This document shows positions 7,757 through 61,584 of a stretch of DNA of 64,000 nucleotides, piece by piece. Under the pieces are notes generated by a model. That model worked only from the letters and a program-made list of their open reading frames with translations, was not told where the DNA came from and made no database searches. The position numbers and the translations under genes are program-made. This DNA is from Octopus vulgaris (Eukaryota): positions 96,534,001-96,598,000 of the forward strand of contig OX597817.1 in NCBI GenBank assembly GCA_951406725.2, given 5' to 3'. Position 1 is the first letter of the stretch, and every line of letters begins with the position of its first letter.

Positions 7757-7975
7757 CAGTGCCGGTGGCACGTAAGAGAACCATCCGAACGTGGCTGTTA
7801 CCTGCGCCGCCCCAACTGGCCTCCGTGCCGGTGGCACGAAAAAGCACCATCCGATTGTGGCTGTTGCCAGCTTCGTCTGGCCCCCGTGCCGGTGGCACGT
7901 AAAAAGCACCATCCAATCGTGGCTGTTTGCCAGCCTCGTCTGGCACCTGTGCAGGTGGCACATAAAAATCACCCA
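7757..7975 (+). repeat. RTE 3' UTR tandem array, 4 units of ~61-67 bp
   Basis: Repeated GTGCCGGTGGCACGTAAAAAGCACCATCC...GCCAG..CTGGC. Confidence 0.9.
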
Positions 7976-8792: not shown

Positions 8793-9195
8793 TACTCTTT
8801 ACTCTTTACTTGTTTCACTCATTTGACTGCGGCCATACCGGAGCACCGCCTTTAATCGAGCAACTCGACCCCGGGACTTATTCTTTTGTAAGCCCAGTAC
8901 TTATTCTATCGGTCTCTTTTGCCGAACCGCTAAGTAACGGGGACATAAACACACCAGCATCGGTTGTCAAGCAATGCTAGGGGGACAAACACACTCACAC
9001 AAACACACACACGCATATATATATATATATACATATATACAATGGGCTTCTTTCAGTTTCCGTCTACCAAATCCACTCACAAGGCTTTGGTCGGCCTGAG
9101 GCTATAGTAGAAGACACTTGCCCAAGGTTCCACGCAGTGAGACTGAACCCGGAACCATATGGTTTGGCAAACATGCTACTTACCACACAGCCACC
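8793..9195 (-). mobile_element. tRNA-derived SINE with CORE-like segment and CR1-group LINE-derived tail
   Basis: Minus strand: A box TGGCTGTGTGG, B box GGTTCAGTC, ACCTTGGGCAAGTGTCTT, internal microsatellite, tail GGCGGTGCTCCGGTATGGCCGCAG..TGAAAC. Confidence 0.85.
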
Positions 9196-9288: not shown

Positions 9289-11703
9289 ATCATCATCATC
9301 ATCATCATCGTTTAACGTCCATTTTCCGCGCTAGCACGGGTTGGACGGTTCGACCGGGGTCTGGGAAGCCAGGGGCTGCACCAGGCTCCAGTCTGATCTG
9401 GCAGTGTTTCTACAGCTGGATGCCCTTCCTAACGCCAACCACTCCGCGAGTGTAGTGGGTGCTTTTTACGTGCCACCGGTACAGGTACCAGGGGAGTCTG
9501 GCATTGGCCACAATCGGTTGGTGCTTTTAACGTGCCACCGGCACGGAAGCCAGTCAAGGCGGTGCTGGCGTCGGCCATGTTCAGATGGTTCTTTTTATGT
9601 GCCACCGGCACAGAAGCCAGTCAAGGTGGCGCTGGCATTGGCCACGTTCGGATGGTGCTTTGTATGTGCACCGGCACAGAAGCCAGTCGAGGCGGTGCTG
9701 GCATCGGCCACGTTCAGATGGTGCTTTTTATGTGTCACCGGCACATGTATCACAACTACTATTTCCATTGATATTTATTTCTATGTTCATGTACTTGACT
9801 CAATAGGTCTCCTCAAGCACAGCGGGATGTTCTGGTATCCAAGGTACTTTGAATGGGCAGGGGCTATGCGGGACTGGTGCAGGAAGCAGCCCGGGTCTTT
9901 GCAGTCACAGCATATCTCCAGAGATCTCGGTCCTTTGTCATTGCCTCTGTGAGGCCCAACGCTCTGAGGTCATGCTTGACTACCTCATCCCATGTCTTCC
10001 TGGGTCTTCCTCTCCCCCTGATACCTTCAACTGTTTGGGAGCGGCACTTCTTCACACATCTCTGCTCATCCATCCGCAGTACATGACCATACCATCACAA
10101 GCGTCGCTCTTGCACACCACATCTGATGCTTCTTATGTCCAGCATTTCTCTCAGGGTGCTTACCCTCTGTCGTGCGTGCACACTGACATTACACATCCAG
10201 CGGATCATGCTAGCTTCATTCCTTTCAAGTCTACGCATGTCCTCTGCAGTCACAGCCCATGTTTCACTACCATGAAGCATGACAGTTCGCACACATGCAT
10301 CATACAATCTACCTTTCACTCTGAGCGAGAGACCCTTTGTCGCCAGTAGGGGTAGGAGCTTTCTAAACTTTGCCCAGGCTATTCGTATTCTAGTGGTGAC
10401 ACTCTCTGAGCATCCACCTCCACTACTAACCTGGTCACCCAGGTAGCGGAAACTATCAACTACTTCTAGTTTCTCCCCCTGGAGTGTGATGGAATCTGTT
10501 TTCTGAGTATCTGTGGTGTCTATTGTCCCTGTGCATCTGCCGCACATGAAAGCTATCTTATCAGTTAATTTCCCTTTGATGATGCATCCATAGCTTACAC
10601 TGGGTACATCTTATGGAGTTTCTACCTACGCCTTACCTACAGATCGAGCAGGGCCACCTGCCCGAGGTTGTGTGTGCTGAGTTCACCTTTCTGCTCACTA
10701 TAACTTTGGTCTTTGCTACATTTACTCTAAGGCCCTTTGATTCTAACCCTTGCTTCCACACCCGAAATTTCTTTTCGAGTTCCGGTAGTGATTCTGCTAT
10801 GAGAGCCAAGTCCTCAGCATAGAGGAGCTCCCAGTGGCAACCTGTTTTGAATTCCTCTGTTATTGCCTGGAGGACTATGATGAATAAAAGGGGACTGAGG
10901 GCTGAGTCTTGGTGTATACCTACTTCTACCCGGAATTCTTCACCATATTCGTTGCCTATTCTAGCCTTGCTGACAGCCTCTCTGTATAGGGCCTGTACAG
11001 CGCTTATTAGCCATTCGTCAATCTCCAGTTTCGGCAATGATTACCAGATAAGGGATCGGGGGACCCTGTCAAAGGCTTTCTCTAAGTCCACAAAAGCTAT
11101 GTAGAAGGGTTTAGCTATGTAGAAGGGTTTAGCTAGGTACTTCTCCTGCAGTTGTCGGACCAGGAATATAGCATCAGTGGTGCTTCTACCTGGCACAAAA
11201 CTGAACTGCATCTCATCTAAGCAAATTCTTTCCCTAAAGAGATGGGCTATGACCCTCTCTGAGACCTTCATCACCTGACCCAACAGTTTAATACCCCTAT
11301 AGTTATTTCTATCTAGAGCATCACCTTTACCCTTGTAGCAGTTGACTATGGTGCTGCTACGCCAGTCATTGGGTATGACTTCATTATGAACTACCTGGTT
11401 TACAATACGGGTGACTACGCCATAGCCCACATAACCAGATGTTTTAAGCATCTCAGCAGTGATTCCTGATGGGTCGGAGGCTTTACCTCATTTCATACCC
11501 TTAATTGCCTTAACTACAAGGGAGCTGTCTATTCGGATAGCTGGTCCCTCTACTGGGTCAACATTTGGCAGGCTCTCCTCCTCCCATTCATTCTCCACAT
11601 TCAGCAGTCTTTCATAATGGCTTCTCCAAGCCTCTTTCTTTTCACCATCATTAAAAGCGAGTGCCCCATCATCCATGCGGACACATTTCTCTCCTGTAAC
11701 ATC
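9289..11703 (-). mobile_element. RTE-clade LINE (second subfamily), 5'-truncated
   Basis: Minus frames: NYRGIKLL, DLEKAFD, YAED, FRYLG, RGRPRKTW; 3' UTR array; (GAT)n tail at ~9290; 18-bp duplication (AKPFYI twice). Confidence 0.93.
9457..9746 (-). repeat. RTE 3' UTR tandem array, 5 units of ~61-67 bp
   Basis: Five copies of GGTGCTTTTTACGTGCCACCGGCAC (with variants) on the plus strand. Confidence 0.88.
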
Positions 11704-14700
11704 AGCTGCTGAGCAAGAATCTTTTTTGTGCATGGCACAAAAGATTGTACAGCAGCTAACCTGGCTTCATCAAACCCAAGCTCGCAGGTGGGACTACCCA
11801 GAATACACAAGACCACCACAGCAAACAGACCCAAGATGGACACCGCCGGGAACAACATACACCTCACCTCGATGCTCCTACTGAACATCAGAGGACTGCA
11901 AACACTCAGTAACAGGACAAAAATCCCGTTCTTGAGAGACTTTGTTGCATGCAATCAAGCCTTATGCATAGCACTTACGGAAACGCACCTGAAACCGGAC
12001 ATAGCAGATGCGGAATTACACATACCACAGTATGTTGTACTACGGACCGACAGAAAAGAAAGGAGTCATGGAGGAGTTGCTATGTACATCCGTGAGGACC
12101 TCACACCCCAGGTCCTTTTGTCATACTCAAACTCGGTGTGTGACACACTAATTGTACATATAAGGCAACTTGATGTAGTTGTGTGTGCTACATATCACCC
12201 TCCAGATGCCCCAAGCCATGTGGGCAAGTTTGAAGACTGCCTTATAAAAATAGAAGAAGTTCTAAGCACATTAGAACAACACATAAGTGTACTTCTTATG
12301 GGAGACTTCAATCTACCCAATGTCAGATGGCCCGAGGGCCTTTCTCTCCCAGGAATGACAAGATGTGAACGAGGACAGGCGAGGTCCCTCCTGAACCTCA
12401 TCAACACCCTGTACATGGAGCAAGTAATACTCCAACCAACCAGGGCAGGTAACACACTGGATCTCTGCTTCACAAATTATATGGATCTCATCCATAATGT
12501 GAAAGTGACACCGACACTACTCTCGGATCACAACATGGTAGAGCTGACCATGTACGGGCTAAAAGAGAGCACGGACATGCAGCCTACAAGAAACCCTCAG
12601 AATCTTTCCAGCTTGAACTACCATAAGGCAAACTGGAAACAAATTGAGAAAGAGATCCTCAAACAAAACTGGCCTGAATGTCTCTCCTCGCCAGACATCG
12701 ACGTGAAACTTCAACAATTCATGTCTGTAATGCAAGCCATATGCTACAAATGTGTCCCAGAGAGAAAGGCCACTGTACACAAGAACAAAATCCCCAGAGA
12801 GAGGAAAATTTTAATGAGACGGCGTACAAAAATTTCAAATCGCCTAAACAAACAAATTGAAAGCAGTGAAAAGTCCCGCCTCAAAATAAAACTGTTGGAA
12901 ATTGAAAAATGTCTGCAACTCTCCCATGAAAAGGAAAGAGCAGACAAAGAAGCCTGGGCTATAGACAACATAAAATCTAACCCCAGAGCTTTCTACAGGT
13001 ATGCCAAAGAAACAGCTACGGTGCACTGTTGGATAGGGCCACTCCTTGAAAAGGATGGCACACTCACAGGAATACCAATGAGGGTAAGTGAAATACTGAA
13101 TGAGGCAATTCAAGAGTGTTTTCACTCCACCCCTTGGGCATTTCCAAATCACCAATCCAACTGACTTCTTTACCACTGCAGATATAAAATCAGAGGCGGC
13201 GACGATAAATTACATCGATATAAAGGAAGACGATGTAATAAAGGCTATAGATGAAATGAAAACAGACTCAGCTACTGGCCCCGATGGATTCCCGGCAATC
13301 CTCCTAAAAGTATGTAAGAGAGTCCTAGCAAGACCACTGCAGTTCCTCTTTCAGAGCTTCCTTGCAGCTGGCAAACTTCCAAGAAAACTGAAGGAAGGTA
13401 AAATATGCCCTGAAGGAAGGTAAAATATGCCCTATTCATAAAGGAGGTAGCAGAGCGGAGGCCAAGAACTACAGACCTATCTCTCTGACCTCACACATCA
13501 GCAAGGTTATGGAACGAATAGTCAGAAGGAAACTGATCACCTTCCTTGAAGAAAATGACTTGCTGCCCGACACCCAACATAGTTTCCGACCAGGGAGAAG
13601 CTGTTTAACTCAGCTCCTACAACACTATGACTGGGTGCTGAAACGACTGCTCAACCACTCAAATGTGGAAGTGATATATCTCGACTTTGCAAAGGCCTTT
13701 GATAAAGTCGATCATGGAATGATATGTCACAAACTGCGTGATCTCAACATAGTTGGAAAACTGGGAGAATGGCTTCATGACTTTCTGGTGGTAGTAGCCA
13801 ATGGGGCCACTTCCATTAACACGCAAATAGTGAGCGGTGTTCCGCAGGGCACTGTTTTGGGACCACTACTGTTCATAATGGCCCTCTCAGACATGCCCTC
13901 AGCCCCGCAGAGAGCCACGATCACAAGTTATGCAGATGATACAAAAGTTTCACAGGCAATACAGAACCCTGAGGACACTAAACGCCTGCAATGTGAGCTG
14001 GACAAAATATACAAGTGGGCTGAAAAGAATAGCATGCAGTTCAATGCCTGAAAGTTTCAAGCTTTATACTATCAGCATGCAAAACTAAATGCAATACCCA
14101 ATGAATACACTGGACCCGGAGGAATTGCAATCCCAGAGGCACAATCAGTGCGTGACCTGGGTATTTACATGAGTGATGACGCAACCTTTTGTGTACATGT
14201 TGCTAAATTGGCAATGAAATGTAGATGACTGGCCGGATTAATTCTCAGAACCTTTAGAACAAGAAACCATGATGGTCCTCTGGAGGACACTTGTCCTAAG
14301 CCACTTTGACTATTGCTCTCAGTTATGGTCACCATCCAGTGTCAAGTTGATCACAGAACTTGAGGCGATCCAACGTAGCTACACGAAGAAGATAGCCTCT
14401 ATGCAGAATATAAGCTACTGGGAAAGACTCAAGGGATTAAAACTATATTCCTTGGAGCGTAGGCGGGAAAGATATGCCATAATATATATCTGGAAGATCC
14501 TGGAGGGACTTGTCCCAAACTTTGGCATCGAGAGTTACACAAATGCCAGAACTGTGCGCCACTGCGTGGTGCCTAGGACTCCAAATTTGCCATCAAGATG
14601 TAGGACAAGATACTGTGATAGCCTGGGCTTCCGAGGCCCACAGCTCTTCAATATCCTCCCGAAGAACCTAAGAGACCTGCATGGGGTGGATGCAGATGTC

Positions 14701-14916
14701 TTTAAAATGAAACTGGATCTCTTCCTGTCAGGTATCCCAGATGAACCAACTTCACGGCAGGAGGTGCAGATGAGGGCAGCTGCATCGAACTCTCTCATGC
14801 ACCAAATAGCAGTTGCTAAAAAGCTTTCGTGAAGTAAAACCATGTAGCAACACCAAATGGCGGTGCCCCAGCATGGCCACAGCTCATGAGCTGAAACTAG
14901 AATCAATCAATCAATC
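11700..14916 (+). mobile_element. CR1-group LINE copy 1 (end of ORF1 plus ORF2, frameshifted)
   Basis: APE (LLNIRG, LTETHL, GGVAMY, GDFNLP, LDLCF, SDHN); RT (YLDFAKAFDKVDH, SGVPQGTVLGPLLF, YADDTK); (AATC)n tail; 22-bp tandem duplication at 13388-13431 breaks the frame. Confidence 0.95.
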
Positions 14917-16982: not shown

Positions 16983-19900
16983 TCTCTCCCGCCTTTGCTC
17001 TAGGGAGAAGAGTTTTAATACTTTCAGTCTTTCCCAGTAGCTGATATGTTGCATTGAGACGATCTCCTTAGTGTAGCTTCTTTGAATTGCTTCGAGTTCT
17101 GCTGTTAGCTTTATATTGTGTGGTGACCATAGTTGGGAGCAGTAGTCCAAGCAGCTGAGGACAAAAGTTTTCCACAGGACCATCAGTGTCTCCTTCTCTC
17201 TTGTTCTGAAAGTTCGGAGAATCCATCCACCTAACCGTCTGTATTTTATCACCAAATTAGTAATATGCACTTGGAAAGATGCATCATTGCTCATGTCAAT
17301 GCCCAGGTCACGCACTGATTTTGACTCGGGGATTACAATACTTCCCAGGCCAGTGTATCCAGTCTACATGTCGTTTACCTTTGTGTGCCGGTAGCGCAGG
17401 GCCTGGAACTTACCTGCATTAAACTGCATGTTGTTGTCCTCAGCCCACCTGTATATTGTATCCAACTCTTGTTGCAGATGTGCAATATTTTCAGGGTTTT
17501 CTATTGTATGGGAGACTTTTGTGTCATCTGCATAGCTAGCAAGAGTGGTCATCTTAGCAACTGGGGGCATGTCTGAAAGGGCCTCTATGAACAGCAGTGG
17601 CCCCAAGACAGTGCCCTGTGGAACACCGCTTGTTATTTGTGTTTCCTTGGAGGTGGCTCCATTGGCCACAACTGCCTGCCTTCTATCTTTTAGGAAGTTG
17701 TGCAGCCACTCTCCAAGTTTTCCGCCTATGCCGAGACCACACAGTTTGTGACAAATCATACCATGATCGACTTTATCAAAGGCTTTTGCAAAGTCGAGAT
17801 ATATCACATCCACATTTGAGCCATTTAGTAGCTGTTTTAACACCCAGTCATAGTGTTGCAGGAGCTGTGTTAGGCAGCTCCTACCTGGTCGAAATCTATG
17901 CTGGGTGACAGTCAGCAAGTCATTTTCTTCAAGGAACATGATTAGTTTCTTGCGGGCTATTCGTTCCATAACTTTGCTGATGTGTGAGGTCAGAGAGATA
18001 GGCCTATAATTTTTAACATCTGCTCTGCTTCCTCCCTTATGGACAGGGCATATTACCCCCTCTTTCAATTTGACTGGGAGCTTAACACTTGCAAGAAAGT
18101 TCTGAAAAAGAAGCTGTAGCGGTTTTGCAAGGGCTCGTTTGCATGATTTGAGAAGGATCGCTGGAAATCCATCAGCTCCAGAGGCTGAGTTTGTGTCAAT
18201 CTCATCTATGGCCAGTGTGATATCATCATCTTCAATGTTGATGTACTCAATTTTTGCCTCTTTGGCCACAGGTAAAGTGGCAAAGAATTCTTCTGGGTTG
18301 TTTACTTGCCTGTGTCCTAGAGGTGTAGTGAACACACTTTGGAACTGATTGTTCAGTATTTCACTTATCCTCATGGGATTTCCTGTGAGAGAGCCATCTT
18401 TTTGGAAGAGAGGTCCTATTCTCTGGTGCATTGTGGCTGTCTCTTTGGCAAACTTAAAGAAAGCTTTAGGGTTTGACTTTATATTTTCTCTTACCCAAGC
18501 TTCTTTATCTGCTCTCTCCTTTTCATGAGACTGATGCAGACTTTTCGCAATTTCCATTAGCATTCTCTTGAGCCGAGACTTCTCACCACTTTTGGTGTGC
18601 TTGCTCAGGCGGTTCGCAATCCTTGTCCGTCGTCTCATAAGAATCTTCCTTTCTATAGGGATCCTGCTTTTGTTTTTGTGTGTGCTGGCCCTGCACACTG
18701 GGACATATTTGTCACATATGGCTTGTATTATAGACATGAAGCGTTTGTGTTTCATGTCAATGTCTGGTGTGGAGAGACATTTAGGCCAATCCTGTTTGAG
18801 GATCTCTTTCTCAATCAACTTCCAATTTGCTTTATGAAAGTTTAATTTGGAGAGATTGTGGATGCTTCGTATAGGCTGTGTGTCTGTGGAGGCTTTTGGT
18901 CCATACATAGACAGCTCTATTATGTTGTGATCCGAGATCATTGTCGGCATCACTTTAACATTATGGATAATATCCATATTGTTTGTGAAGCAGAGATCCA
19001 GTATATTATTTGCCCTGGTTGGTTGCAGCACTATTTGCTCCATGAAAGAGGCATTTGTGAGATGGGGCAGGGACTCTGCCTGTGTCTGCTGATGGTGTGT
19101 CATCCCTGGGAGCATTCTGCCCCCCAGGCCATTCCATATTGGGGAAGTTAAAGTCACCCATGAAGAATACACTGTTGTGTTGTTCCAGGTTGGTGAGAAC
19201 TTCTCCTATTTTTGTTAGGCAGTCTTCAAACATGCCTGTGTGATTTGGGGCATCCAGTGGGCGATATGTAGTACATATGACGATATTCAGTTGTCTTATG
19301 TGTACAATTTGAGTGTCACACACTGAGTTTGAATATGACAACAGGACCTGGGGCGTTAGGTCATCTCGGATGTACATTGCAACTCCACCATGGCTCTTCC
19401 CTTTTCTATCTGAGCGTACGACAACATATTGCGGTATGTGTATTTCTGCATCCCCTATATCAGGTCCAAGATGCGTTTCTATGAGTGCCATGCATATAGC
19501 TTGATTGCATACTGCAAGGTCTCTCAGGAATGAGATTTTCCTTTTGCAGTTTCCTCGCAGCAGCCCTCCTACATTTAGTAGAAATATTTTTGTGGTGTGT
19601 GTGTTGGTGTCTGTGGTGGCCATCCTACATCTGTTGGTGGTGGCCTTATGTGATGGTAGTTCTAGCTTTGTAGCCAGGTCAGCTGCTGGACAATTTTTTG
19701 TGCCATGCACAAAAAAGATTGCTGTTTAGCTGCTGCCCTTCTCACATCTGGGTGAAGCTGGCCATTTGTTGGGCTATGCAGTATCTTTTTTGGACCGCAT
19801 ATCGTCTTTCAGGAGTAGTCAGTGCGCCATTTTACCTTCTTTGATATTTTTTTCTTTTTCTTTTTGTTCTCCCCATGAGAGGGATTTTTGTCTTGTGTCC

Positions 19901-25719: not shown

Positions 25720-28700
25720 GAAACTGGAAGCCCTCCTGTACCAGTAGTCCTATAAAGAAATGAGTATTTAGAAAAAAGGAAGGACCGAAAACAAAAATAA
25801 GGAGGGAAAGGGAAGAAAAGGCAAAACAACCAAAGCTGAAACCCCAACCCACCACACAAACAGCAGAGAACCCCATGGAGGATCCAATGCCACCCAGTAC
25901 ACTTCAGGAAAGAAGAAATCTGGAAGGCACTGAAGAACCTGTAAATTCTACCTGCGGGGCAAATGTTGGCATGAGGAGGACGGCAAAAACTGCCGGTTCA
26001 CCCACCCGACACCCTGCCAGAACTTCAGGGGACTCAAAGAAAAGAGCTTTACTGACGGAAGACAAGAAATGTCTCCCAGGAAAACTTTCAAAAAAGAAGT
26101 GTGCTCCTCAGATGTTCTGCGCAACGCAACAGCTGAGCAAGAGTCTTTTTTATGCTTGGCACAAAGAATTGTCCGGCAGCTAACCTGGCTACACCAAGCA
26201 CAGAGAAGGAACCCTGCCCACCACTATGCAAGTTCACCACAGTCAACAGACATGGGATGGCCTCCCCTAACGCCTGCACAGCCGTCACCCCAATACTTTT
26301 ACTAAATATTGGGGGCCCTGTTGCATCAAAGTAGAAACAAAATTTCTTTCCTGAGAGATCTTACTGCATGCAATCAAGCCCTATGCATAGCACTCATGGA
26401 AACTCACCTCAGCCCTGATATAGAGGACGCAGAAGTACACATACCAAACTATGCCATACTGCAAACAGACAGAAGGGAAAGGAGCCATGGTAGAGTTGCT
26501 GTATACATCCGAGATGACCTCACACCCCAGGTCTCAATGACATACTCAAACTCGGTATGTGTCACTCTAATTGTATACATAAGACAACATAATATAGTCA
26601 TATGCAATACATATTGCCCACCAGATGCCCCAAATCACATAGGCAAGTTTGAAGATTGCTTCACAAGAATGAAAGAAATCCACATGAATCTGGAACACCA
26701 CATGACCATATTTCTTATGGGTGATTTCAACTTCCCCAACTTCAAATGGCCTGAAGGTCTCATACTCTCAGGAATGAATCATTTCAAGCAAGTGCAGGTG
26801 GAGTCCCTGCTCAACCTCACCAACGCCTTATTCGTGGAGCAAGTTGTACTCAAACCAACTAGGGCGAATAACATTCTGGATCTCTGCTTCACGAACAATA
26901 TGGATATCATTCATGATGTGAAAGTGACACCGACATTAGTTTCGGATCACAACATAATAGAGCTGTCTATGTTTGGGCCAAAAGTAACCAGAGACATACA
27001 GCCTAAAGGAAGCACCCAAAATCTCTCCAATCTGAACTTCCACAAAGCAGATTGGAAATCGATCCAAAAAGAGATCCTCAGAGAGTACTGGCCGGAATGT
27101 CTCTTCACACCAGACATTGACATGAAACTAGAATGTTTCATGTCTTCTGTGCAAGCCGTAGGCCAGAAATATGTCCCAGAGCACAAGGCCAAAACAAATA
27201 GGAGCAAGATTCCTAGAGACAGGAAAATCCTCATGAGACGACGGATGAAGGTTGCAAATCGTCTCAACCAACATCCCAAAAGTAGCGAAACATCCCGCCT
27301 AAAAACAACACTGATGGAGATCGAAAAAAGGCTGCAACAATCCTATATGAGGGAGAAAGCAGACAAAGAAGCCTGGGTTATAAAAACCATTAAATCAAAC
27401 CCAAAGGCCTTCTTTCATTACATGAAAGAAACAGTCTCAGTGCACTACAAGATAGGACCCCTCCTCCAAAACGATGGCTCCCTCACAGACAGTCCAACTA
27501 AGATCAGTGAGATGCTGAATGACCAGTTCAAAAGTGTCTTTACCACCCTGTTGGAACACAGACAAGTGAACGAACCAGTGGACTTCTTTGCCGCCTCACC
27601 TATAACCAGCGAGGCGATTACAATAGAATGTATTGACATTAGCGAAGAAGATGTCCTACTAGCCATAGATGAAGATGACACAAACTCAACTGCTGGTCCA
27701 GATGGTTTCCCAGCAATCCTCCTCAAACCTCGTAAACATGCCCTGGCAAAACCCCTCGAGATTCTCTTCCAGAGCTTTCTTTCGAATGGCAAACTGCCAA
27801 GCAAGCTGAAGGAGGGAATAATATGCCCAATACATAAAGGGGGGGGTAGAGCAGATGCCAAAAACTATAGGCCTATCTCTCTGACTTCACACATCAGCAA
27901 AGTCATGGAACGGATAGTCAGAAAGAAACTAATCGCATTCCTTGAGGAAAATAATTTGCTGAGTGATACCCAGCATGGCTTTCGACCAGGTAGGAGCTAC
28001 CTGACCCAGCTCTTACAACATTATGACTGGGTGTTGAGGCAGTTACTCAACAAATCAAATGTGGACGTAATATACCTTGATTTTGCAAAAGCTTTTGACA
28101 AGGTGGATCATGATTTGCCACAAACTGCGTGACCTCGGCATAGCTGGAAAACTTGGAGTGTGTTACATGACTTGCTGAAAGATAGGAGTCAGGCAGTAGT
28201 GGTTAATGGAGCCACCTCTATGAACACACAAATAGTGAGCGGTGTTCCACAGGGCACTGTCTTGGGACCACTGCTTTTTATAGTGGCCCTCTCAGATATG
28301 CACTCAAATGCCCGGATAGCCACTCTGGCAAGCTATGCAGACGATACGGAAGTCTCGCAGAAAATACAGAACCCCAGCGATGTTGCATACCTGCAGCAGG
28401 AGTTGAACTCAATCTACAGATGGACTGAGGATAATAATATGCAGTTTAATGCTGAAAAATTCCAGGCCCTGTGCTACCAGCATCCAAAACTGAATATTAA
28501 ACTTACAGGATACACCGGTCCACAGGGAATTTCAATCCCAGAGCCTAAGTCTGTGAGGGATCTGGGTATCGACATGAGTGATGATACCTCTTTCCAAGTG
28601 CACATTACCAGATGGCAACAAAGTGCAGACGACTGGCTGGATGGATCCTAAGAACATTCAGAACCAGAGATAAGGAAACCATGATGGTCCTCTGGCGGAC

Positions 28701-35307: not shown

Positions 35308-35742
35308 ATAGGCTTAACTGTATGGTTAAGAAGTTTGCTTCCCAACCACATGGTTCTGGATTCAGTCCCACTGTGTAGCACCTTGGGCAAATATCTTCTA
35401 TGACACCCCTGACCAAACCAAAGCCTTGTCAGTAGATTTGGTACACAGAAACTCAAAAAGAAAACCATCATATGTGTATATATATGTATGTGTGTGTGAG
35501 AGAGTGAGTGTATTTTTGTTTTTCCTTGTCTTGAGATTGCATGATAGTTGTAAATGAGTGTCACTGTCATGCAAGTGGCATCAGTAGTATTGATTATTCT
35601 GTGAAAAATGTGTCTGGTCATGAGGAAATACCTTGGTTAGAAACAGGTGAGGGTTGGTGTCACAAAGGACATCTGACTATAGAAATTCTGTCTCAACAAA
35701 CTCCATAGACATTAAACAATAATGAAGATGATGCTGATGATA
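35308..35742 (+). mobile_element. tRNA-derived SINE with CORE-like segment and RTE-derived tail
   Basis: Head matches the SINE at 8793-9195; tail GGGTTGGTGTCACAAAGGACATCTGACTATAGAAA..GACATTAAAC..GATGATG resembles the RTE 3' end. Confidence 0.75.
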
Positions 35743-40196: not shown

Positions 40197-40613
40197 AGGC
40201 AAGTGAGGATCAGAATCGAAATCGATCAATGGAAATTGCAGATGTGTTACCAGTGCCGGTACCATCCGTTCGCAACCGTTGCCAGCGCCGCCCCGACTGG
40301 CCTCGTGCCGGTGGCATGTAAAAAGCACCATCCGTTCGTGTCCGTTGCCAGCCTCGCCTGGCCCCCGTGCTGGTGGCACGTAAAAAGCACCATCCATTCG
40401 TGGCCGTTTGCCAGCTCTGTCTGGCACCTGTGCGGGTGGCACGTAAAAAGCACCCTCTACACTCACGGAGTGGTTGGCGTTAGGAAGGGCATCCAGCCGT
40501 AGAAACACTGCCAGATCTGACTGGGCCTGATGAAGCCTTCTGGCTTCACAGACCCCAGTTGAACCGTCCAACCCATGCTAGCATGGAAAACGGACGCTAA
40601 ACGATGATGATGA
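40197..40613 (+). mobile_element. RTE 3' UTR-only insertion with array (3 full units plus 1 partial)
   Basis: Matches 7697-8141; (GAT)n tail. Confidence 0.9.
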
Positions 40614-40659: not shown

Positions 40660-41000
40660 CACTAGTTTCAATCATTTGATTGTAGCCATGCTGAATTACC
40701 TTGAAGAATTTTAATCAAATGATTCAACCCAACACTTTTTTTTAGTCTGGTACTCATTCTATTGATCTCTTAGGCCAAACAACTAAGTTACAGGAACATA
40801 AACACACCAACACCAGTTGTCAAGTAGTGGTGAGGGACAAGCACACACACAGTGGGCTTCTTTTAGTTTTTGTCTACCAAATCCACTCACAAGGCTTTGG
40901 TTGGCCCAAAGCTATAGCAGAAGACAGTTGCCCAAGGTGCCACATTGTGGGATGTACCCAAAACCATGTCATTAGGAAGCAAACTTCTTACCACACAGCC
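40660..41000 (-). mobile_element. SINE, same family as 8793-9195
   Basis: Shared blocks CCAAATCCACTCACAAGGCTTTGG, TGCCCAAGGTGCCAC, TTACCACACAGCC. Confidence 0.8.
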
Positions 41001-41006
41001 ATAAAA

Positions 41007-41190
41007 TCATCATTATCATTGTTTAATATCCGTTTTCCATGCTGGCATAGGTTGGATGGTCTGACTGAGGTCTGGAAAGCCAATGGCTGCACCAGGCTCT
41101 AATTTGATCTGGCAATGTTTCTACAGCTGGATGCCCTTCCTAATTCCAACCACTCTGAGAGTGTAGTGGGTGCGTTTTACATTCCACCAA
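41007..41190 (-). mobile_element. RTE extreme 3' fragment
   Basis: TTTCTACAGCTGGATGCCCTTCCTAA..CCAACCACTC block and degenerate (CAT)n. Confidence 0.82.
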
Positions 41191-42216: not shown

Positions 42217-43762
42217 GTTTCAGGTGTGGAAGCAAGGATTAGAATCGAAGGGCCTTAGAATCAACCTAGCCAAAACCAAAGTCCTAATAAGTAGGAAGGT
42301 AGACCAATTACAAACGCCTTCAGGTAGATGGCCCTGCTCGATCTGTAAAAAAGGTGTAGGTAGAAACTCTATAAGGTGCACCAAGTGTAAGCCATGGACA
42401 CATAAGAGGTGCAGCAATGTCAAAGGAAGGCTAACTAGAAAAATAGTTTTTGTCTGTGGCAGATGCTCAGGAGCAATAAACACTGAAAATGTGCAGAGAC
42501 CAACTTCTACCACGTTCCAGGGAGAAAAACTAGAAGTAGTTGATAGCTTCCACTACCTAGGTGACCAAGTCAGTAGCGGAGGTGGGTGTGCTGAAAGTGT
42601 ATCTGTTAGAGTAAGAATAGCCTGGGCAAAGTTTAGAGAGCTCTTACTCCTGCTGGTGATAAAATGCCTCTCGCTCAGAGTAAGAGGCAGACTGTATGAT
42701 GCATGTGTACATACAGCCATACTACATGGTAGTGAAACATGGAGTGTGACTGCTGAGGATATGCGTAAGCTCGCAAGAAATGAAGCCAGTATGCTCCGAT
42801 GGATGTGTAATGTCAGTGTTCATAATCGACAGAGTGTAAGTACCTTGAGAGAAAAGTTGGACCTAAGAAGCATCAGTTGTGGTGTGTAAGAGAGACGTTT
42901 GCGCTGGTATGGTCATGTGACGAGAATGGCTGAAGATAGTTGTGTGCAAAAGTGCCACACCCTAGCAGTTGAGGGAACCTGTGGAAGAGGTAGACCCAGG
43001 AAAACCTGGGACGAGGCAGTGAAGTACAACCTTCGAACTTTAGGTCTCACCAAGGAAATGACTAGAGACCGAGATCTATGGTAGTATGCTGTGCGTGAGA
43101 AGACCCGGCAAGACTAGTGAGACCATAACCCGTGGCCTCTACCTGGTATGTAGCCAGTCAACTTATACATACCTTTCCTTCTTGGGACACAAAACTCCAC
43201 TTGTGAAGACCCATTGAGGCAAGTGAAAATCAAACCAAATCAAATCAGATATCAGAAAGCAGAATCAAAATCGAAGTCGATCAACATCAATGGAAATTGC
43301 GACTGTGATACCAGTACCAGTAACAAGTAACGAACCATCCGATCATGGCCGTTGCCAGTGCTGCCCCGACTGGCCTCCGTGCTGGTGACATGTAAAAAGC
43401 ACCATCCGTTCGTGGCCGTTGCCAGCCTCGCCTGGCCCCCGTGCCAGTGGTACGTAAAAAGCACCATCCGTTCATGGCCGTTGGCAGTCTCGCCTGGCCC
43501 CCGTGCTGGTGGCACGTAAAAAGCACCATCCGTCCGTGGCCGTTTGCCAGCTCCGTCTGGCACCTGTGCAGGTGGCACGTAAAAAGCACCCACTACACTC
43601 ACGGAGTGGTTGGCGTTAGGAAGGGCATCCAGCTGTAGAAACACTGCCAGATCAGACTGGGCCTGATGCAGCCTTCTGGCTTCACAGACACCAGTTGAAC
43701 CGTCCAACCCATGCTAGCATGGAAAGCGGACGCTAAACGATGATGATGATGATGATGATGAT
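42217..43762 (+). mobile_element. 5'-truncated RTE LINE with PHD-like insert and array (4 units plus 1 partial)
   Basis: Closely similar to 6700-8141; array at ~43330-43592; (GAT)n tail. Confidence 0.93.
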
Positions 43763-43784
43763 ATATATATATATATATATATAT

Positions 43785-43919
43785 ATCATCATTTAGCGTC
43801 CGCTTTCCATGCTAGCATGGGTTGGACGATTCAACTGGGGTCTGTGAAGCTGGAAGGCTTCGTCAGGCCCAGTCAGATCTGGCAGTGTTTCTACGGCTGG
43901 ATGCCCTTCCTAACGCCAA
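43785..43919 (-). mobile_element. RTE extreme 3' fragment, inverted against the preceding copy
   Basis: Reverse-complement match to 43610-43745. Confidence 0.9.
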
Positions 43920-46625: not shown

Positions 46626-46935
46626 ATTTTAAAATATGAATAGTGATTATGTTTTTGTTAAATCATTTGGTAATTAGATATTGACTATAACTGAGATTAG
46701 GTTATTTGTGAGTTTATTAGGTTTTTACAGCCATTTTATATCTTAATAGATAAATACATTTTCTATCTATTTTTACCTTAAAAATTAATATTTAACATTA
46801 TAATTGGATTGTATGACATTATCCTAATTGTTAAAGTTTCTAATTTGATAATAGAGTTTTTTATAAGAAAAATTATTATTTTATTTCTTAAAAAATATTG
46901 TTTAAATATATTTGCTTATTTATTTAACTATTATC

Positions 46936-47036
46936 TTTAACCTGAAGATTGACTATGATTATAATTCGAATTTTTAATTGAATTTAAATCATTGTAATTC
47001 GAATTGGGTTATGGCCATGAAACGTACGTAGTGGTT
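46936..47036 (+). ncRNA. Hammerhead-like motif with long helix II
   Basis: CTGAAGA (46942), long imperfect hairpin, GAAAC-gtac-GTA with palindrome ACGTACGT; helix I weak; second copy at 61108-61210. Confidence 0.6.
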
Positions 47037-47513
47037 TTACTTATTATATTATATTAAACTTTCTAATACCTTTTTGATAGTTATTTTTAAAATAAATAAA
47101 TAAATAAATAAATATAAGTATTAAAAAATTAAAAGTTTAAAAATTTATAAATTTTAAATTTTAAAAATATATTTAAAAAATTTATAAATAAAATTAAAAA
47201 TTTTTAATTTAAATAATTTAATTTTAAATTTTATATTTTATATATTTTGTATATTATATTAATTATATTCATTTTTATGTTTTGGTTTATGTTTTTCACT
47301 GTTTGATTTGCCTAATAGTGGTTTTATCTCTAATTTAATTTAAATTTATACTGTGAAATTTGATTTAATCCTAAATCTAATTTTTCCCTGTAAGTTTGGA
47401 TTTACTCCCTAATAATATTATTATTATTATAATTATTATTATTATTATTATTATTATAATTAATATATTGATAAATTACGTTTATTGAGTATAATATCTC
47501 AATTTCGTAAGTT

Positions 47514-49907: not shown

Positions 49908-52472
49908 TGACTATATCTAAACCCTATTTTGTTGATTTATGTACTAGTATTAAACTAAAATTTAGTATGTGATTTATAATAGATATTACATGATTTTATA
50001 TGTTAAATTTAATATTATTAAATAAATAATTTATATTTTAATAAATTTATAAATATATAACTTAATGATAGTAGTGTAGTGTTTCCAATTCTTTATGAGG
50101 TTTGGTATTGGTCAATAAGAGTTATTAAAGGCTCTTTATTTACTTAAAGTTAGATTATATTTAGATGTTCATTTTATTACTAAATATTTATGCGTTTAAT
50201 GAATATAGATTATATGAAGGTTTATAATTTTGAATGTATAGGATAATAATTTTTTCTTTAATATTTTTTAAAATGATAATTTGTATTTTTTTATTCAATT
50301 ATAGAACAGTGTATTTGATCTATAGATAAATTAATTTACCTATATAATTAGTTTAATATATTATTGGTTAGCTTTTATTTTGAGAATTAATATTATTATA
50401 TATAATATAAATATATATTTATCTTATACTTGAGTTAAGTTTATGGTTTGTTTTAAATTTGTTAAATAAATCTATTTGTATGTATTTTCTATATATTTGA
50501 AGTAGATTTATTTAGATGTTTATTTAATGAATATTATTTAGTGAATTTTATTAAAATATAGTTTTTATATTAATTAGTGGTCATATTATAGATAATGCTT
50601 GAATTAATACTGAATTAATTTTGAATGTGTCTAATAGTTATTTTTAAATTTTTTATTTATATTAATTTGACTACTACGTAATTTTTTTATATAAATTAAT
50701 TAAATCTTATAAGATTTTTAGAATATACACAGTAATTGGTAGTTATATTAATTATTTAATTTATTGAGTATAATTTATTGTAGTTATTTTTAATGATAAA
50801 TCTTATAGTATTTAGTGGTTTTATTCTATAATTGTGATTTCGTTTTATTTACATTTATTGATAAACTATAGCTGTTTCCATTGACAATAATTTTTATTGA
50901 TAAAATATATTTGTAGTTTTTCATTGTTAAAAAAATTCTTCATCTATTTATTCTATTTCTGTTAATAACGTAATTCCACGAGTATTCTTATAAACGCTTA
51001 AAAGACGTTTTCCGTTTTAAATTTTAGTTCATGACACAGCCCTGGTAAAGCTAAGTAATCTATTTCTATTTAAGATTTAAAAATTTTTAAATATTTCAAT
51101 AAGTTTTATTGTATTATTTTGTATATTATATAAATACTCATTGTTATTTGATGTTGAATATATGTATATAATTATTAGATTATAAATATACGTTATTTGT
51201 AAGATATTACTTAGCCATTGAGATATATAGATCGTTAATAATTCTACGTTTTTTTTTAAAGTTAGGTTACGGGTTTATAATTTGATTTTAATCTTTAATT
51301 ATTTTATATTAATATTTAATACTTATGTAAGTAGTATTGGATTAATTAATTTATTTATTTTTCTTTATATGTCTATACATTTATTGATAGCGTAAATTTT
51401 AGATTTTAATCACTATATTTGTTGATAATAATTTGGTTATTATTTCTTAAATATTTTATAATTATTAGATGTGTACTTAAATCTTAAATATGAATAATGA
51501 TTATTTAGTTAAATAATTTGTTAATTAAAATTTTGGACTATAACTGAGTTAAGGATATTCGTGAGTTTATTATGTTTTTTTAAGCCATATTATATATTCA
51601 TAGATATCTATAATAGTGACTTTGTTCTATTATAGCTTAAATATAGCGATTTCCATTGATAATTTGTATTAGTATTTTTCATTGATAAAATATATTCGTA
51701 GTTTTCGTTGTTAAAAGAATTTTCCATTTGTTTATTATTAGTTTAGTTAATGACATGATTTTTGAAACCTAAGTAAACCTTCTTATTAAAGTTATTTTAG
51801 TTATTTTAATAATTTATGTTATTTTGTATTATATTGGATACTATATAACTAAGGATTGATAATTTAATTGTATAAGTATTTAGTTGTTGAAGATATGTAT
51901 TTCATTATTAGATTATAACTATATGGTTTTTGTAAGTTACTAATTGGCCAATGAGATATATTGATCGTTAAATAGTTATACGTTTTTTTAAAGATAGGTT
52001 ATACATTTATAATCTGCTTTTTCATCTTTAATTTTTTAATATATTTCGTAAATAATAATGGAATAATTAATTTATTTAGTTTTCATTATACGTATATATA
52101 TTTATTGATAGAGTAAACTTTAGATCTTAATTATTATATTTATTGATAATAATTTAGTTATTAGTCTTAAATATTTTATAATTATTAGATTTGAACTTAA
52201 ATTTAAAAATATGAATAGTAATCATCTTTTTGTTAAATCATTTGGTAATTAGATATTGACTATAACTGAGATTAGGTTATTTGTGAGTTTATTAGGTTTT
52301 TACAGCCATTTTATATCTTAATAGATAAATACATTTTCTATCTATTTTTACCTTAAAAATTAATATTTAACATTATAATTGGATTGTATGGCATTATCCT
52401 AATCGTTAAAGTTTCTAATTTGATAATAGAGTTTTTTATAAGAAAAATTATTATTTTATTTCTTAAAAAAAC

Positions 52473-57623: not shown

Positions 57624-58104
57624 TACATACACACAATGGGCTTGTTTCAATTTCCATCAACCAGATCCACTCACAAGGCTTTGGTCAGCCCAAGGCTATA
57701 GTAGAAGACACTTGCCCAAGGTGCCTTGCAGTGGGACTGAACCCGGAACCATGTGGTTGGGAAGCAAGCTTCTTACCGCACAGCCACACCTGTACATTAT
57801 ACATATAGACACACATACACACACACACACACACATGTTCATCTGCTCACACATATATATCTGTGTTCACACACCCACACACATATATATATACCACAAC
57901 ATATCCTTATATATATATACATACATACACACATATTCACCTACTCCCACTATATATGTATCCTTTTGCCCTTGTGCTTATGCCTCAACAGACATTTGTG
58001 TACATAGAAAGGCACACATACATACACATGTAAAGTCACCTAAGTACATCTATTTACAGATGTATGCATGCATATACATACATATACATGTTTGTTTCAA
58101 ATAC

Positions 58105-58309: not shown

Positions 58310-58508
58310 TTATAATTATTAGATGTGTACTTAAATCTAAAATATGAATAATGATTATTTAGTTAAATAATTTGGTAATTTAATTTTGGACTATAACTGG
58401 ATTAAGGATATTCATGAGTTTATTATGTTTTTTTAAGCCATATTATATATTCATAGATATAGTGACTTTGTTCTATTATAGCTTAAATATAGCCATTTTC
58501 CATTGATA

Positions 58509-58755
58509 ATCATCATCATCATCATCATCATCATCATTTAGCATCCGCTGTCCATGCTAGCATGGGTTGGACGGTTCAACTGGGGTCTGAGAAGCCAGAA
58601 GGCTGCATCAGACCCAGTCTGATCTGGCAGTGTTTCTATGGCTGGATGCCCTTCCTAACGCCAACCACTCCGTGAGTGTAGTGGGTGCTTTTTACGTGCC
58701 ACCCGCACAAGTGCCATCGGAGCTGGCAAACGGTCACGAACGGATGGTGCTTTTT
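58509..58755 (-). mobile_element. RTE 3' fragment with ~1.5 array units
   Basis: (CAT)n followed by the reverse complement of the RTE 3' end. Confidence 0.88.
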
Positions 58756-59430
58756 GTTTATTATAAGTTTAGTTAATGACACGATAATTGAAAGCTAAGC
58801 AAACCTTTTTATTAAAGTTATTTTAATAATTTATGTTATATTGTATTATATTGGATACTATATAACTACTGATTGTTAATTTGATTGTATAATTATTTAG
58901 TTGTTGAAGATATGTATTTCATTATTAGATTATAACTGTACGTGATTTGTAAGTTATAACTTAGCCAACGAGATATATAGAACATTGAATAGTTATACGG
59001 TTCTTTTAAGATAGGTTATATGTTTATAATTTGCTTTTTCATCTTTAATTTTTTAGTATATTTCATAAATATATTACATTAATATTTAATATTTGCGTAA
59101 GTAATAATGGACTAATTAATTTATTTAGTTTTCCTTTTATGTCTATATATTTATTGATAGAGTAAATTTTAGATCTTAATTATTATATTTATTGATAATA
59201 ATTTAGTTATTATTCTTAAATATTTTATAATTATTAGATTTGAACTTAAATTTAAAAATATGAATAGTGATTATTTTGTTAAATAATTTGGTAATTAGAT
59301 ATTGACTATAACTGAGTTTAGGATATTCATGAGTTTATTATGTTTTTTAAAGCCATATTATATCTTAATAGATAAATACATTTTTCTATCTATTTCTTAA
59401 AAAATGAATATTTAACATAATAATTGGGTT

Positions 59431-60964
59431 TTCAGAGCATTAACCTCTGAAAATCTGCAGAAAACAACTTCCGTCACTTTCCAGGGGGAAAAACTAGAAG
59501 TAGTTGATAGCTTCCGTTATCTTGGTGACCAAGTCAGTAGTGGGGGTGGGTGTGCTGAAAGTGTAACGGCTAGAGTAAGAATAGCCTGGGCAAAGTTTAG
59601 GGAGCTCTTACCTCTGTTGGTGACTAAAGGCCTCTTGCTCAGAGTAAAAGGCAGACTGTATGATGCATGTGTACGAACAGCCATGCTACATGGCAGTGAA
59701 ACATGGGCCGTGACTGCTGAGGACATGCGTAAGCTCGCGAGAAATGAAGCTAGTATGCTCCGTTGGATGTGTAATGTCAGTGTTCATAGTCGACAGAGTG
59801 TAAGTACCTTGAGAGAAAAGTTGGACCTAAGAGGCATCAGATGTTTTGTGCAAGAGAGACGATTGCGCTGGTATGGTCATGTGGCGAGAATGGATGAAGA
59901 TAGGTGTGTGAAAAAGTGCCACACCCTGGCAGTTGAGGGGACCTGTGGAAGAGGTAAACCCAGGAAAACCTGGGTCGAGGTGGTGAAGCACGACCTTCGA
60001 ACTCTAGGTCTCACCAAGGAAATGACCAGAGACCGAGACCTATGGAAGTATGCTATGCGTCAGAAGACCCGGCAAGACCAGTGAGAACAATCAAAATCAA
60101 ATCATATATCAGAAAGCAGGGGTTAAGTGATCCATCCGTTCGTGTCCGCTGTCAGCCTCGTCTGGCACCCATGCCGGTGATACGTAAAAGCACCATTCGC
60201 TCGTGGCCGTTTGCCAGCTCTGCCTGGCCCCCGTGTCGGTGGCACGTAAAAGCACCATCCGTTCGTGTTCGTTGCCAGCCTCGCCTGGCCCCGTGCCGGT
60301 GACACGTAAAAGCACCGTCCGTTCGTGGCCGTTTGCCAGCTCTGTTTGGCCCTGTGTCGGTGGCACGTAAAAGCACCATCCGTTCATGTCCGTTGCCAGC
60401 CTCGGATGGCCCCCGTGCCGGTGACACGTAAAAGCACCGTCCGTTCGTGGCCGTTTGCCAGCTCTGTCTGGCAACCGTGTCGGTGGCACGTAAAAGCACC
60501 ATCCGTTCGCGTCCATTGCCAGCTCTGTCTGGCCCCGTGTCGGTGGCACGTAAAAGCACCATCCGTTCGTGTTCGTTGTCAGCCTCGGCTGGCCCCCGTG
60601 CCGGTGACACATAAAAGCACCGTCCGTTCGTGGCCGTTTGCCAGCTCTGTCTGGCCCCGTGTCGGTGGCACGTAAAAGCACCATCCATTCGTGTCCGTTG
60701 TCAGCATCGCTGGCCCCGTGCCGGTGACACGTAAAAGCACCATCCGTTCGTGGCCGTTCACCAGCTCTGTGTGGCACCTGTGCAGGTGGCACGTAAAAAC
60801 ACCCACTACACTCGCGGAGTGGTTGGCGTTAGGAAGGGCATCCAGCCGTAGAAACACTGCCAGATCTGACTGGGCCTGACGAAGCCTTCCAGCTTCACAG
60901 ACTCCAGTTGACCCGTCCAACCCATGCTAGCATGGAAAGCGGACGCTAAATGATGATGATGATG
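59431..60964 (+). mobile_element. 5'-truncated RTE LINE with 9-bp target-site duplication
   Basis: AATTGGGTT at 59422-59430 and 60965-60973; post-RT ORF 59617-60084; long array; (GAT)n tail. Confidence 0.95.
60132..60804 (+). repeat. RTE 3' UTR tandem array, 11 cores at 59-62-bp spacing
   Basis: CACGTAAAAGCACC-type cores at ~60181, 60243, 60303, 60364, 60425, 60487, 60547, 60608, 60669, 60728, 60790. Confidence 0.95.
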
Positions 60965-61107
60965 AATTGGGTTGTATGACATTATCCTAATGGTTTAAGT
61001 TTCTAATTTGATAATAGAGTTTTTTATAAGAAAAAAATTTTTTTTTTTTAATTTATTTATTAAAATATATAGTTTAAATCTATTTGCTTATTTATTTAAC
61101 TATTATC

Positions 61108-61210
61108 ATTAACCTGAAGATTGACTATAATTATAATTCGAATTTTTAATTGAATTTAAATTAATTGTAATTCAAATTGAATTATGGCCATGAAACGTAT
61201 GTACTGGTTT
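61108..61210 (+). ncRNA. Hammerhead-like motif, copy of 46936-47036
   Basis: CTGAAGA at 61114, GAAAC-gtat-GTA at ~61192-61203. Confidence 0.55.
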
Positions 61211-61584
61211 TACTTATTATATTATATCAAACTTTTTAATACTTTTTGATAGTTTAAAAAAAATCAATAAATTAATTAATTAAAAAATTAAAAATTTATA
61301 AATTTTAAATTTAAAAATATGAAAATATAAAAATTTATAACTATAAATATATATTTTAAATTCAAATAATTTAAATTTTATATTTTATTTATTTTGTATA
61401 TTATATTAATTATATTTATTTTTATGTTTTGGTTTATGTCTGTCACTGTTTGATTTGCCTAATAGTGGTTTTATCTCTAAATTAATTTATATTCATACTG
61501 TGAAATTTGATTTAATCCTAAATCTAATTTTTCCCTGTAAATTTGGATATACTCCCTAATATTATTATATATATATATATCTTG

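What the first reader, a model, noticed from the sequence alone, without database searches (positions are those of the whole stretch)
60132..60804. Reverse-transcriptase-linked tandem array of ~60-nt structured units in the RTE 3' UTR, with copy-specific length
Seen: each RTE copy that retains this region carries an array between the ORF and the (GAT)n tail. Counts are 4 units (7757-7975), 5 (9457-9746, minus), 3 plus a partial (40250-40455), 4 plus a partial (43330-43592), ~1.5 (58685-58755, truncated) and 11 here. Unit consensus: GGCACG-TAAAA(A)-GCACCATCCGTTCGTGGCCGTT-GCCAG-[variable loop]-CTGGC-CC-CGTGCC-GGT. The GCCAG/CTGGC stem is mostly kept while its loop varies in sequence and length (CTCTGT, CCTCGC, CTTCGT, CGCCGCCCCGA, CACCGCCTTGA). 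The array is polar: the last unit is distinct (usually TGTGCAGGTGGCAC..CACCCACTACAC). Spacing of 59-67 nt does not preserve a reading frame. Inference: a multimerised RNA module carried by the retroelement, for example an RT-binding, stability, processing or self-cleaving element, which expands during retrotransposition. I recognise no described RTE 3' UTR like this and found no known ribozyme core, but I cannot search repeat databases.
Basis: partly seen in the sequence, partly recalled or inferred. Interest (0 to 1): 0.8.

Follow-up and report, generated by a model that had tools for sequence, protein, structure and literature searches.

The report
Repeat array in octopus retrotransposon tail
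A jumping gene, probably of an octopus, carries at its tail a borrowed mini-element whose front half was duplicated into a variable-length array of 60-base repeats; the array looks mostly like a by-product, though each repeat keeps a possible small RNA knot worth testing.

Summary
The array is real: 11.0 copies of a 61-nt unit at 60132-60803, with shorter arrays in five other copies of the same LINE. It is not a free-standing RNA module. The LINE ends in an appended ~190-nt module made of a motif that lies in the 5' leader of related RT elements in other animals, plus their terminal hairpin (read as RPTHASMENGR* at the ORF end of relatives) and (GAT)n: a bipartite RTE-type unit. Each repeat looks like a duplicate of this module's front half with the 36-nt leader core deleted, which explains the distinct last unit. 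This array is mostly an (X,Y)n dimer repeat. Folding energy is no better than shuffles, the GCCAG/CTGGC stem shows no covariation, and no ribozyme family matches. The best-kept part is a 25-nt junction that can form an H-type pseudoknot, with two compensatory changes in one distant relative. The single-copy leader core is 95-98% conserved against 79-91% for the ORF, so selection acts there. Most likely a weakly constrained, SVA-like VNTR riding on a captured tail; a functional multimer remains possible. Repbase and Dfam could not be checked.

The parts
59422..59430 (+). Left target-site duplication (9 bp)
   Evidence: Only match of 7 bp or more between the two flanks searched; coordinates
59431..60084 (+). 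5'-truncated C-terminal ORF fragment of an EN-RT non-LTR element (RTE-type)
   Evidence: 90% identical to copies at 6952-7606 and 42471-43125; copy A carries Pfam RVT_1 and a weak PHD-like hit; 41% identity to the complete element L121
60085..60131 (+). Remnant of the LINE's own 3' UTR and degenerate (AAATC)n; ~114 nt with the upstream hairpin are deleted relative to copy D, and the connector and first junction are missing too
   Evidence: Alignment; the same joined form in one contig each of runs X15, X3, X8
60132..60803 (+). Tandem array, 11.0 x 61 nt, mostly an (X,Y)n dimer repeat; unit = 20-25-nt junction + ~40-nt copy of the segment after the leader core
60779..60803 (+). Last junction 25-mer; candidate H-type pseudoknot (5-bp stem 1, 4-bp stem 2 GGUG/CACC, A-rich loop), repeated at each unit boundary
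   Evidence: same build 18-21 nt before the leader motif in L075, L041, L026. Predicted only
60804..60865 (+). Single-copy leader core: 5-bp hairpin (60809-60821), motif GGTTGGCG..GGAAGGGCATCC with a 6-bp stem, A-rich run; homologous to the 5' leader of related RT elements
   Evidence: Upstream of the endonuclease start in L075, L077 and twice in L121; 1-3 differences in 62 nt among copies A-F
60840..60878 (+). Segment ATCC..GCCAG-6 nt-CTGG..CCTG, the likely template of the unit's 3' part
   Evidence: Last units C2 and D3 align in this register, p=0.001-0.005 in 4 pairings; 7 of 11 pairings not significant
60913..60945 (+). Terminal hairpin, the likely RT recognition site; reads RPTHASMESGR* in one frame
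   Evidence: z -2.2 here, -2.0 and -3.1 in copies D and B; 2 of 120 homologous proteins end in exactly RPTHASMENGR, 13 in a related motif, 4 in SNP(C); L121 ends so with no 3' UTR
60952..60964 (+). (GAT)n tail
60965..60973 (+). Right target-site duplication
43190..43262 (+). In copy D (also A, B): weak hairpin followed by degenerate (GAAATC/AAATC)n, the inferred older 3' end of the LINE
   Evidence: 71-74% identical B vs A/D against 47-49% for the UTR before it; folding not better than shuffles, z +1.36 on a slightly short cut

Best explanation
An RTE-type LINE lineage took on a new 3' end: a bipartite module (RTE 5'-leader piece + RTE terminal hairpin + (GAT)n) placed behind its older end (composition shown; capture inferred). 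Reverse transcription now primes at the module's hairpin (inferred; target-site duplication shown). The module's front ~105 nt were duplicated between short GTGC-like homologies and the upstream copy lost the 36-nt leader core, giving a ~62-nt unit (inferred from homology). Misalignment between units in source elements, by DNA slippage or unequal exchange or by RT realignment after pausing at the junction structure, then changed the unit number; in this copy the last two units were amplified as a dimer (dimer shown, mechanism inferred). Selection acts mainly on the single leader core and terminal hairpin. The array is a tolerated, weakly constrained VNTR with no catalytic role.
For: Motif lies upstream of the EN start in L075, L077 and twice in L121, and upstream of EN-like matches in L007, L061, L069, L070. 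33 of 121 motif loci show an RTE-like end signature within 450 nt downstream, mostly followed by a microsatellite; L090 and L118 have the same bipartite build. Terminal hairpin equals the ORF end of relatives. Unit-to-tail homology in a fixed register. F's X units group with C1/D1/D2 and its Y units with the last units C2/D3. B vs A/D/F: ORF 79%, third positions 64% (vs F), old UTR 47-49%, connector 26-31 of 36, mid 77-87%, leader 98%. The older hairpin is dispensable: F's deletion recurs in 3 of 4 runs. Module depth is about ten times or more that of the ORF end in three contig runs, and a loose end shows a second upstream partner. No excess folding, no significant covariation. Unit profile finds nothing in 130 loci (best E 6.8). 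Precedent: SVA/LAVA VNTRs have conserved end units and microhomology-driven change at the DNA level (PMC4432496, abstract).
Against: The 25-mer is better kept than the rest of the unit (0.96 vs 1.97 steps, p=0.004). Of 14 listed variants in array and leader, the 3 at paired sites restore Watson-Crick pairs and 11 are unpaired (only 40 of 180 rows shown). All four copies that include the ORF end keep at least 3 units, across subfamilies 79% identical. Unit-to-tail homology is significant in only 4 of 11 pairings, chosen after seeing the match. The older 3' end folds poorly. Depths of contig runs are not copy numbers, and the raw run gave only 37 reads. No 5' end of this LINE was seen.
Confidence: 0.6

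Rival explanations
1. Functional multimer at the RNA level: each junction folds into a small H-type pseudoknot that blocks 5'-3' decay, stalls RT or binds the LINE protein, so that unit number tunes stability or mobilisation and may release a short SINE-like RNA from the LINE's 3' end.
For: 28 junctions parsed: stem 2 pairs kept in 26-28 of 28, stem 1 in 20-27 of 28 (the parse anchored on these letters and left out 2 decayed junctions). L075 has a different stem 1 (CGAGA/UCUCG vs CGUGC/GCACG, two both-side changes) at the same distance from the motif; L041 and L026 similar. 25-mer best conserved. LAVA VNTR determines mobilisation efficiency (PMC4432496 abstract).
Against: The descriptor is loose: 101 hits in the window, and 9 of 120 relatives against 1-6 in shuffles. 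The top pair of stem 1 is broken in 8 of 28 junctions. In F the one compensatory change fits a within-unit helix better than the pseudoknot. Only 3-4 loci from two source assemblies show the homologue. No site where many molecules begin (little power).
Confidence: 0.22
2. DNA-level promoter monomers: the leader-derived units act like mouse L1 5' monomers (recalled) and drive transcription of the downstream module from inside the LINE 3' UTR.
For: Units derive from a 5' leader. The module far outnumbers ORF ends. Conserved RTE 5'-UTR pieces are proposed to be regulatory (PMC5786205 discussion); LINE-promoter SINEs are described in molluscs (PMC4758252 passages).
Against: Module-only copies in the window start at different points, as 5' truncation would give. 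The most conserved leader part is the one missing from the units. No transcription start data.
Confidence: 0.12
3. Each unit is a self-cleaving ribozyme that processes the transcript into unit-length RNAs.
For: Ribozymes occur at 5' ends of RTE elements (PMC5786205 discussion; twister variants in Perere-3, PMC8501958 abstract start and passages). The loop of X units resembles the HDV L3 loop (recalled).
Against: 0 Rfam hits at gathering score in the window and in 20 related loci, and none of note to E 10 over arrays F, A and B. No hammerhead core. An HDV-like descriptor hits only copy A (9 overlapping loose hits resting on a private base) and none of 4 other copies. The loop is the most variable part. 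Cleavage inside a 3' UTR would cut the ORF from its priming site.
Confidence: 0.03

Closest known systems
Bipartite RTE-derived non-autonomous elements and SINE tails (RTESINE, WALLSI3, Bov-A, CoeSINE4/5, SINE1-1_EBu; PMC5786205 parts 1-4 of 5 read, PMC7245038 passages)
   Same: A piece of RTE 5' UTR joined to an RTE 3' end and microsatellite; tail exchange between elements is described there.
   Different: Here the module is the 3' end of an ORF-bearing LINE, not of a tRNA-headed SINE, and its front half is multimerised. The motif GGGCATCC was not found in that paper's supplement.
SVA / LAVA VNTR (PMC4432496, abstract and outline)
   Same: GC-rich internal tandem array in a non-LTR element, copy-specific length, conserved end units, ordered sub-arrays, microhomology-driven change.
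   Different: Hominoid, L1-mobilised, non-autonomous, 30-50-bp units; no shared origin implied.
RTE-2_OV of Octopus vulgaris (PMC9115989, passages, part 1 of supplement 2)
   Same: Octopus RTE-clade LINE with EN, RT and a Cys/His domain, ~600-nt 3' UTR.
   Different: Its 3' UTR is described as a microsatellite starting at the ORF end, its finger as C2H2; 2 of 2 primers tested do not match the window at 3 mismatches.
Zebrafish DANA SINE (bioRxiv 10.1101/493155, passages)
   Same: Holds the GGAAGGGCATCC motif followed by an A-rich run (reverse strand of the printed sequence).
   Different: A SINE in fish; no such units in the printed sequence.
TE-derived minisatellites (review PMC6947457, passages)
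   Same: First duplication between short direct repeats, then slippage or unequal exchange.
   Different: This array stays inside a mobile element and spreads with it.

Membership tests
RTE-clade LINE | APE endonuclease and RT in one ORF | tested here: met
   Copy A has an EN fragment (5472-6056) and RT (6123-7550), both aligning to the single ORF of L121; RVT_1 E 3.9e-33. Copies are broken and 5'-truncated.
RTE-clade LINE | 3' microsatellite tail and target-site duplication | tested here: met
   (GAT)n in 8 of 8 copies. Clear 9-bp duplication for F; the other 7 lie in TA/CA-rich flanks or gave none.
RTE-clade LINE | RT phylogeny places it in the RTE clade | not testable with these tools
RTE-clade LINE | Short 3' UTR (recalled) | tested here: not met
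   About 590-880 nt here; relative L121 has none.
Bipartite RTE-derived element | Segment from an RTE 5' UTR | tested here: met
   93% over 42 nt to the leader of the second element in L121; 81% over 63 nt to L075.
Bipartite RTE-derived element | RTE 3' end directly downstream | tested here: met
   Hairpin profile hits L090 (E 4.5e-8) and the ORF end of L121 (E 6.9e-7).
Bipartite RTE-derived element | Moves alone, with a defined 5' end | tested here: inconclusive
   Module far deeper than ORF and a second upstream partner seen, but 5' truncation explains the same; no duplications found for G, and H lies in (TA)n.
Self-cleaving ribozymes (hammerhead, HDV-like, twister and other Rfam families) | Match to covariance model or catalytic core | tested here: not met
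   the descriptors had no positive control.
Self-cleaving ribozymes (hammerhead, HDV-like, twister and other Rfam families) | Self-cleavage in vitro | not testable with these tools
   Needs bench work.
H-type pseudoknot RNA element | Covariation in both stems | tested here: inconclusive
   Stem 1: two both-side changes vs L075 and a CG-to-UA change in 3 of 28 junctions (CpG sites). Stem 2 nearly invariant.
VNTR composite retrotransposons (SVA/LAVA) | Alu-like head, L1-driven, hominoid | tested here: not met
   Array sits behind the element's own RT ORF in an invertebrate; analogy only.
RTE-2_OV | Sequence identity and microsatellite 3' UTR | tested here: not met
   full sequence not available, 2 primers only.

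The most novel reading that the evidence does not exclude
An autonomous LINE has moved a structured 5'-leader RNA element, conserved across animal RT elements and absent from Rfam, to its 3' end, keeps it under purifying selection there, and multimerises the pseudoknot in front of it as a tunable nuclease or RT roadblock, so that each LINE transcript also yields a short, self-spreading SINE-like RNA, as flavivirus 3' UTRs yield sfRNA (analogy recalled).
Probability: 0.15. Interest if true: 0.75.

Novelty: new variant of a known kind. Interest (0 to 1): 0.4.

Why it matters
The parts are known kinds: bipartite RTE units and VNTRs inside retroelements. The arrangement, an ORF-bearing LINE ending in a captured leader-plus-tail module with a leader-derived array, was not found in the paper searches that ran, but Repbase and Dfam could not be searched and may hold it. 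It gives a natural test of why RTE 5'-leader pieces are so often kept next to RTE 3' ends: here the piece is 95-98% conserved at a position where it cannot serve as the ORF's leader. It may also account for a share of octopus short repeats. RTE UTRs are being tuned for gene insertion (PMC13708176, passages), so the leader element's role has practical interest.

Tried and rejected
No whole genome was held, so genome-wide unit collection was not possible. Rfam: 0 hits at gathering score in the window and in 20 of 130 loci; E-value mode gave only chance or TA-repeat hits. Viral contigs: 0 hits for three patterns and 0 confirmed relatives. Earlier findings of the scan: nothing by sequence, place or words. 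Stem-versus-loop statistics were dropped because the parse was anchored on the stems and off by one base; one search replaces them. Covariation of the leader motif over 111 distinct loci: the 6-bp stem is paired in 94-111 of 111 per pair but not above shuffles, since the search pattern fixed one side; partners for the purine loop are only slightly above shuffles. A bacterial promoter scan is not informative for an animal. Coding role rejected (stops in all sense frames). Motif in print: 5 papers held it, only the DANA preprint was opened; not in the searched supplements of PMC5786205, PMC13282606 or PMC9115989, where files 5-8 were not searched, file 3 was cut and two were too large; these could hold the element. 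Transcription: run X15 covers all 30 bins but is only guessed to be RNA, so it is not counted. PMC13295347 and PMC8967140 passages gave nothing on such arrays.

Full report
Observation. TRF finds 11.0 copies of a 61-nt unit at 60132-60803 (81% matches, score 836) and related arrays near 7755, 9498, 40290 and 43334. Self-BLAST adds a truncated copy at 58684-58754 and two copies that hold only the terminal part (41004-41188, 43785-43919). I call the copies A (7.9 kb), B (9.5 kb, minus), C (40.4 kb), D (43.5 kb), E (58.7 kb, minus), F (the finding), G and H. F lies between two copies of a 9-bp sequence (59422-59430, 60965-60973), so ORF fragment, array and tail were inserted as one piece. The host is probably an octopus: an O. 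vulgaris primer from PMC9115989 matches a SINE at three places with 1-3 mismatches against 0 expected. Of 24 runs listed, 18 from four coded organisms hold half or more of the element's words. No genome was held.

The element. Copy A encodes an RT (Pfam E 3.9e-33) and a weak PHD-like domain. Its homologues are mostly about 50-58% identical (two at 71-73%); the named ones are from Hydractinia, Mercenaria and Branchiostoma. It does not look like RTE-2_OV.

The terminal 190 nt are a bipartite module. The last 36 nt before (GAT)n translate as RPTHASMENGR* or close variants in 8 of 8 copies. Two of 120 homologous proteins end in exactly these residues, 13 in a related motif and 4 in the other frame's SNP(C). 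The complete relative L121 ends its ORF inside this hairpin with no 3' UTR. The hairpin folds well in D, F and B (z -2.0, -2.2, -3.1; L121 -0.9). About 90 nt upstream lies the motif GTTGGCG..GGAAGGGCATCC. A metagenome scan returned 120 loci, of about 770 estimated. 17 of 121 motif loci match the proteins; in L075, L077 and twice in L121 the motif precedes the endonuclease start by roughly 200-370 nt, and in L007, L061, L069 and L070 it precedes EN-like matches; most of the rest are opposite-strand neighbours. In 33 of 121 an RTE-like end follows within 450 nt, and L090 has the same build as our tail. So the tail is a 5'-leader piece joined to a 3' end, the bipartite form described in PMC5786205 (parts 1-4 of 5 read) and PMC7245038 (passages). 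The motif also stands in zebrafish DANA.

It looks appended. Between B and A/D/F the ORF is 79% identical (third positions 64%, B vs F), the first UTR segment 47-49%, a small hairpin before degenerate (GAAATC)n 71-74%, the connector 26-31 of 36, the leader core 98%, the middle 77-87% and the terminal hairpin 83-89%. I read the upstream hairpin and microsatellite as an older 3' end; this is inference, and it folds poorly (z +1.36). F lacks it, and F's joined form occurs in one contig each of three runs, one at depth 2341. In those runs the module is about ten times or more deeper than the ORF end, and loose ends show a second upstream partner; the 37 raw reads of X23 lie mostly on the module. 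Such depths are not copy numbers, and 5' truncation gives the same gradient. The leader core has 1-3 differences in 62 nt among A-F and 4-7 against the decayed G; one difference is unlikely at 15% divergence (p 5e-4), so it is constrained at its 3' position.

Origin of the unit. The unit's first 20 nt are those that open the module. Its other ~42 nt align with the segment just after the leader core, starting at the same ATCC: p 0.001-0.005 in 4 of 11 pairings, all four with last units (C2, D3), not significant in 7; a unit profile gives only E above 1 on tails. The simplest history is duplication of the module's front half with loss of the 36-nt core from the upstream copy. The last unit keeps the original junction, which explains the polarity. 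In F, X units are 92% alike, Y units 92%, X and Y 81%; X groups with C1/D1/D2 and Y with the last units C2/D3, so the last two units were amplified as a dimer. F's tail is 132/135 identical to H, so the 8% spread among like units suggests growth in steps before this insertion. Skips of 63, 129-140 and 193-204 nt among the 15 of 501 joints shown fit other unit numbers, though alignment ambiguity can mimic them. SVA/LAVA VNTRs behave alike (PMC4432496 abstract).

Structure. Units fold no better than shuffles (z -2.11 to +2.17; whole region +0.80). That 25-mer can form an H-type pseudoknot in most of 28 parsed junctions, and L075, L041 and L026 show the same build with another stem 1 at the same distance from the motif. 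Against this: the descriptor is loose (101 window hits; 9 of 120 relatives vs 1-6 shuffled), the top pair is broken in 8 of 28, and F's one compensatory change favours a within-unit helix. In the read data 3 of 14 listed variants fall at paired sites and all restore pairs (40 of 180 rows shown). No Rfam family matches, and no hammerhead or conserved HDV-like core was found.

Verdict. Best explanation (0.6): a weakly constrained VNTR born from a captured bipartite tail, with function in the single leader core and terminal hairpin. Rivals: functional pseudoknot multimer (0.22), promoter monomers (0.12), ribozyme (0.03). Paper searches found no description of this array; Repbase, Dfam, the older octopus SINE papers and several supplements of PMC9115989 were out of reach or not searched, so novelty is provisional. 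New variant of a known kind; interest 0.4.

Noticed in passing
window 60804-60865; L075, L090, L121 and others: The RTE leader motif may be a structured RNA in its own right (hairpin, 6-bp stem with purine-rich loop, A-rich run); very widespread, with no Rfam match in the window or in 20 loci. The hairpin before it differs in sequence between window, L075 and L090.
   Followed up: partly
window 43562-43919: Copy D and a tail-only copy H lie tail to tail across (GAT)n(TA)n(ATC)n, forming a ~135-bp inverted repeat.
   Followed up: no
window 57640-57790, 40860-41003, 9060-9180, about 35350-35420: Copies of a second short repeat with a CCTTGGGCAA core (CORE-like, recalled); three match an O. vulgaris primer. 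One follows module G directly in the same orientation.
   Followed up: partly
window 11713-14832, 17364-19205, 26306-28651: Other EN/RT LINE fragments only about 25% identical to this family's relative L121; clade not determined.
   Followed up: no
window 46781-47260, 52356-52400, 58330-58500, 59240-59430, 60965-61430: AT-rich repeat family; copies E and F are both inserted in it.
   Followed up: no
L121 31-3459 and 3997-4593: A complete EN-RT element with an intact 1143-codon frame, followed 500 nt later by the start of a second one, inside a contig filed as a bacterial MAG; L122-L124 similar. Probably animal DNA in the bins.
   Followed up: partly
L002 1231-1560: A 55-nt x 6 tandem array (97% matches) starts 147 nt after the leader motif; unrelated in sequence to the window's unit.
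   Followed up: partly
L005, L010, L014 and many others of L001-L120: A large family of short elements starts sharply at GCCTTCAG just before the motif and ends about 190 nt later in a hairpin and (GT)n; the 5' end is complementary to the motif's purine loop.
   Followed up: partly
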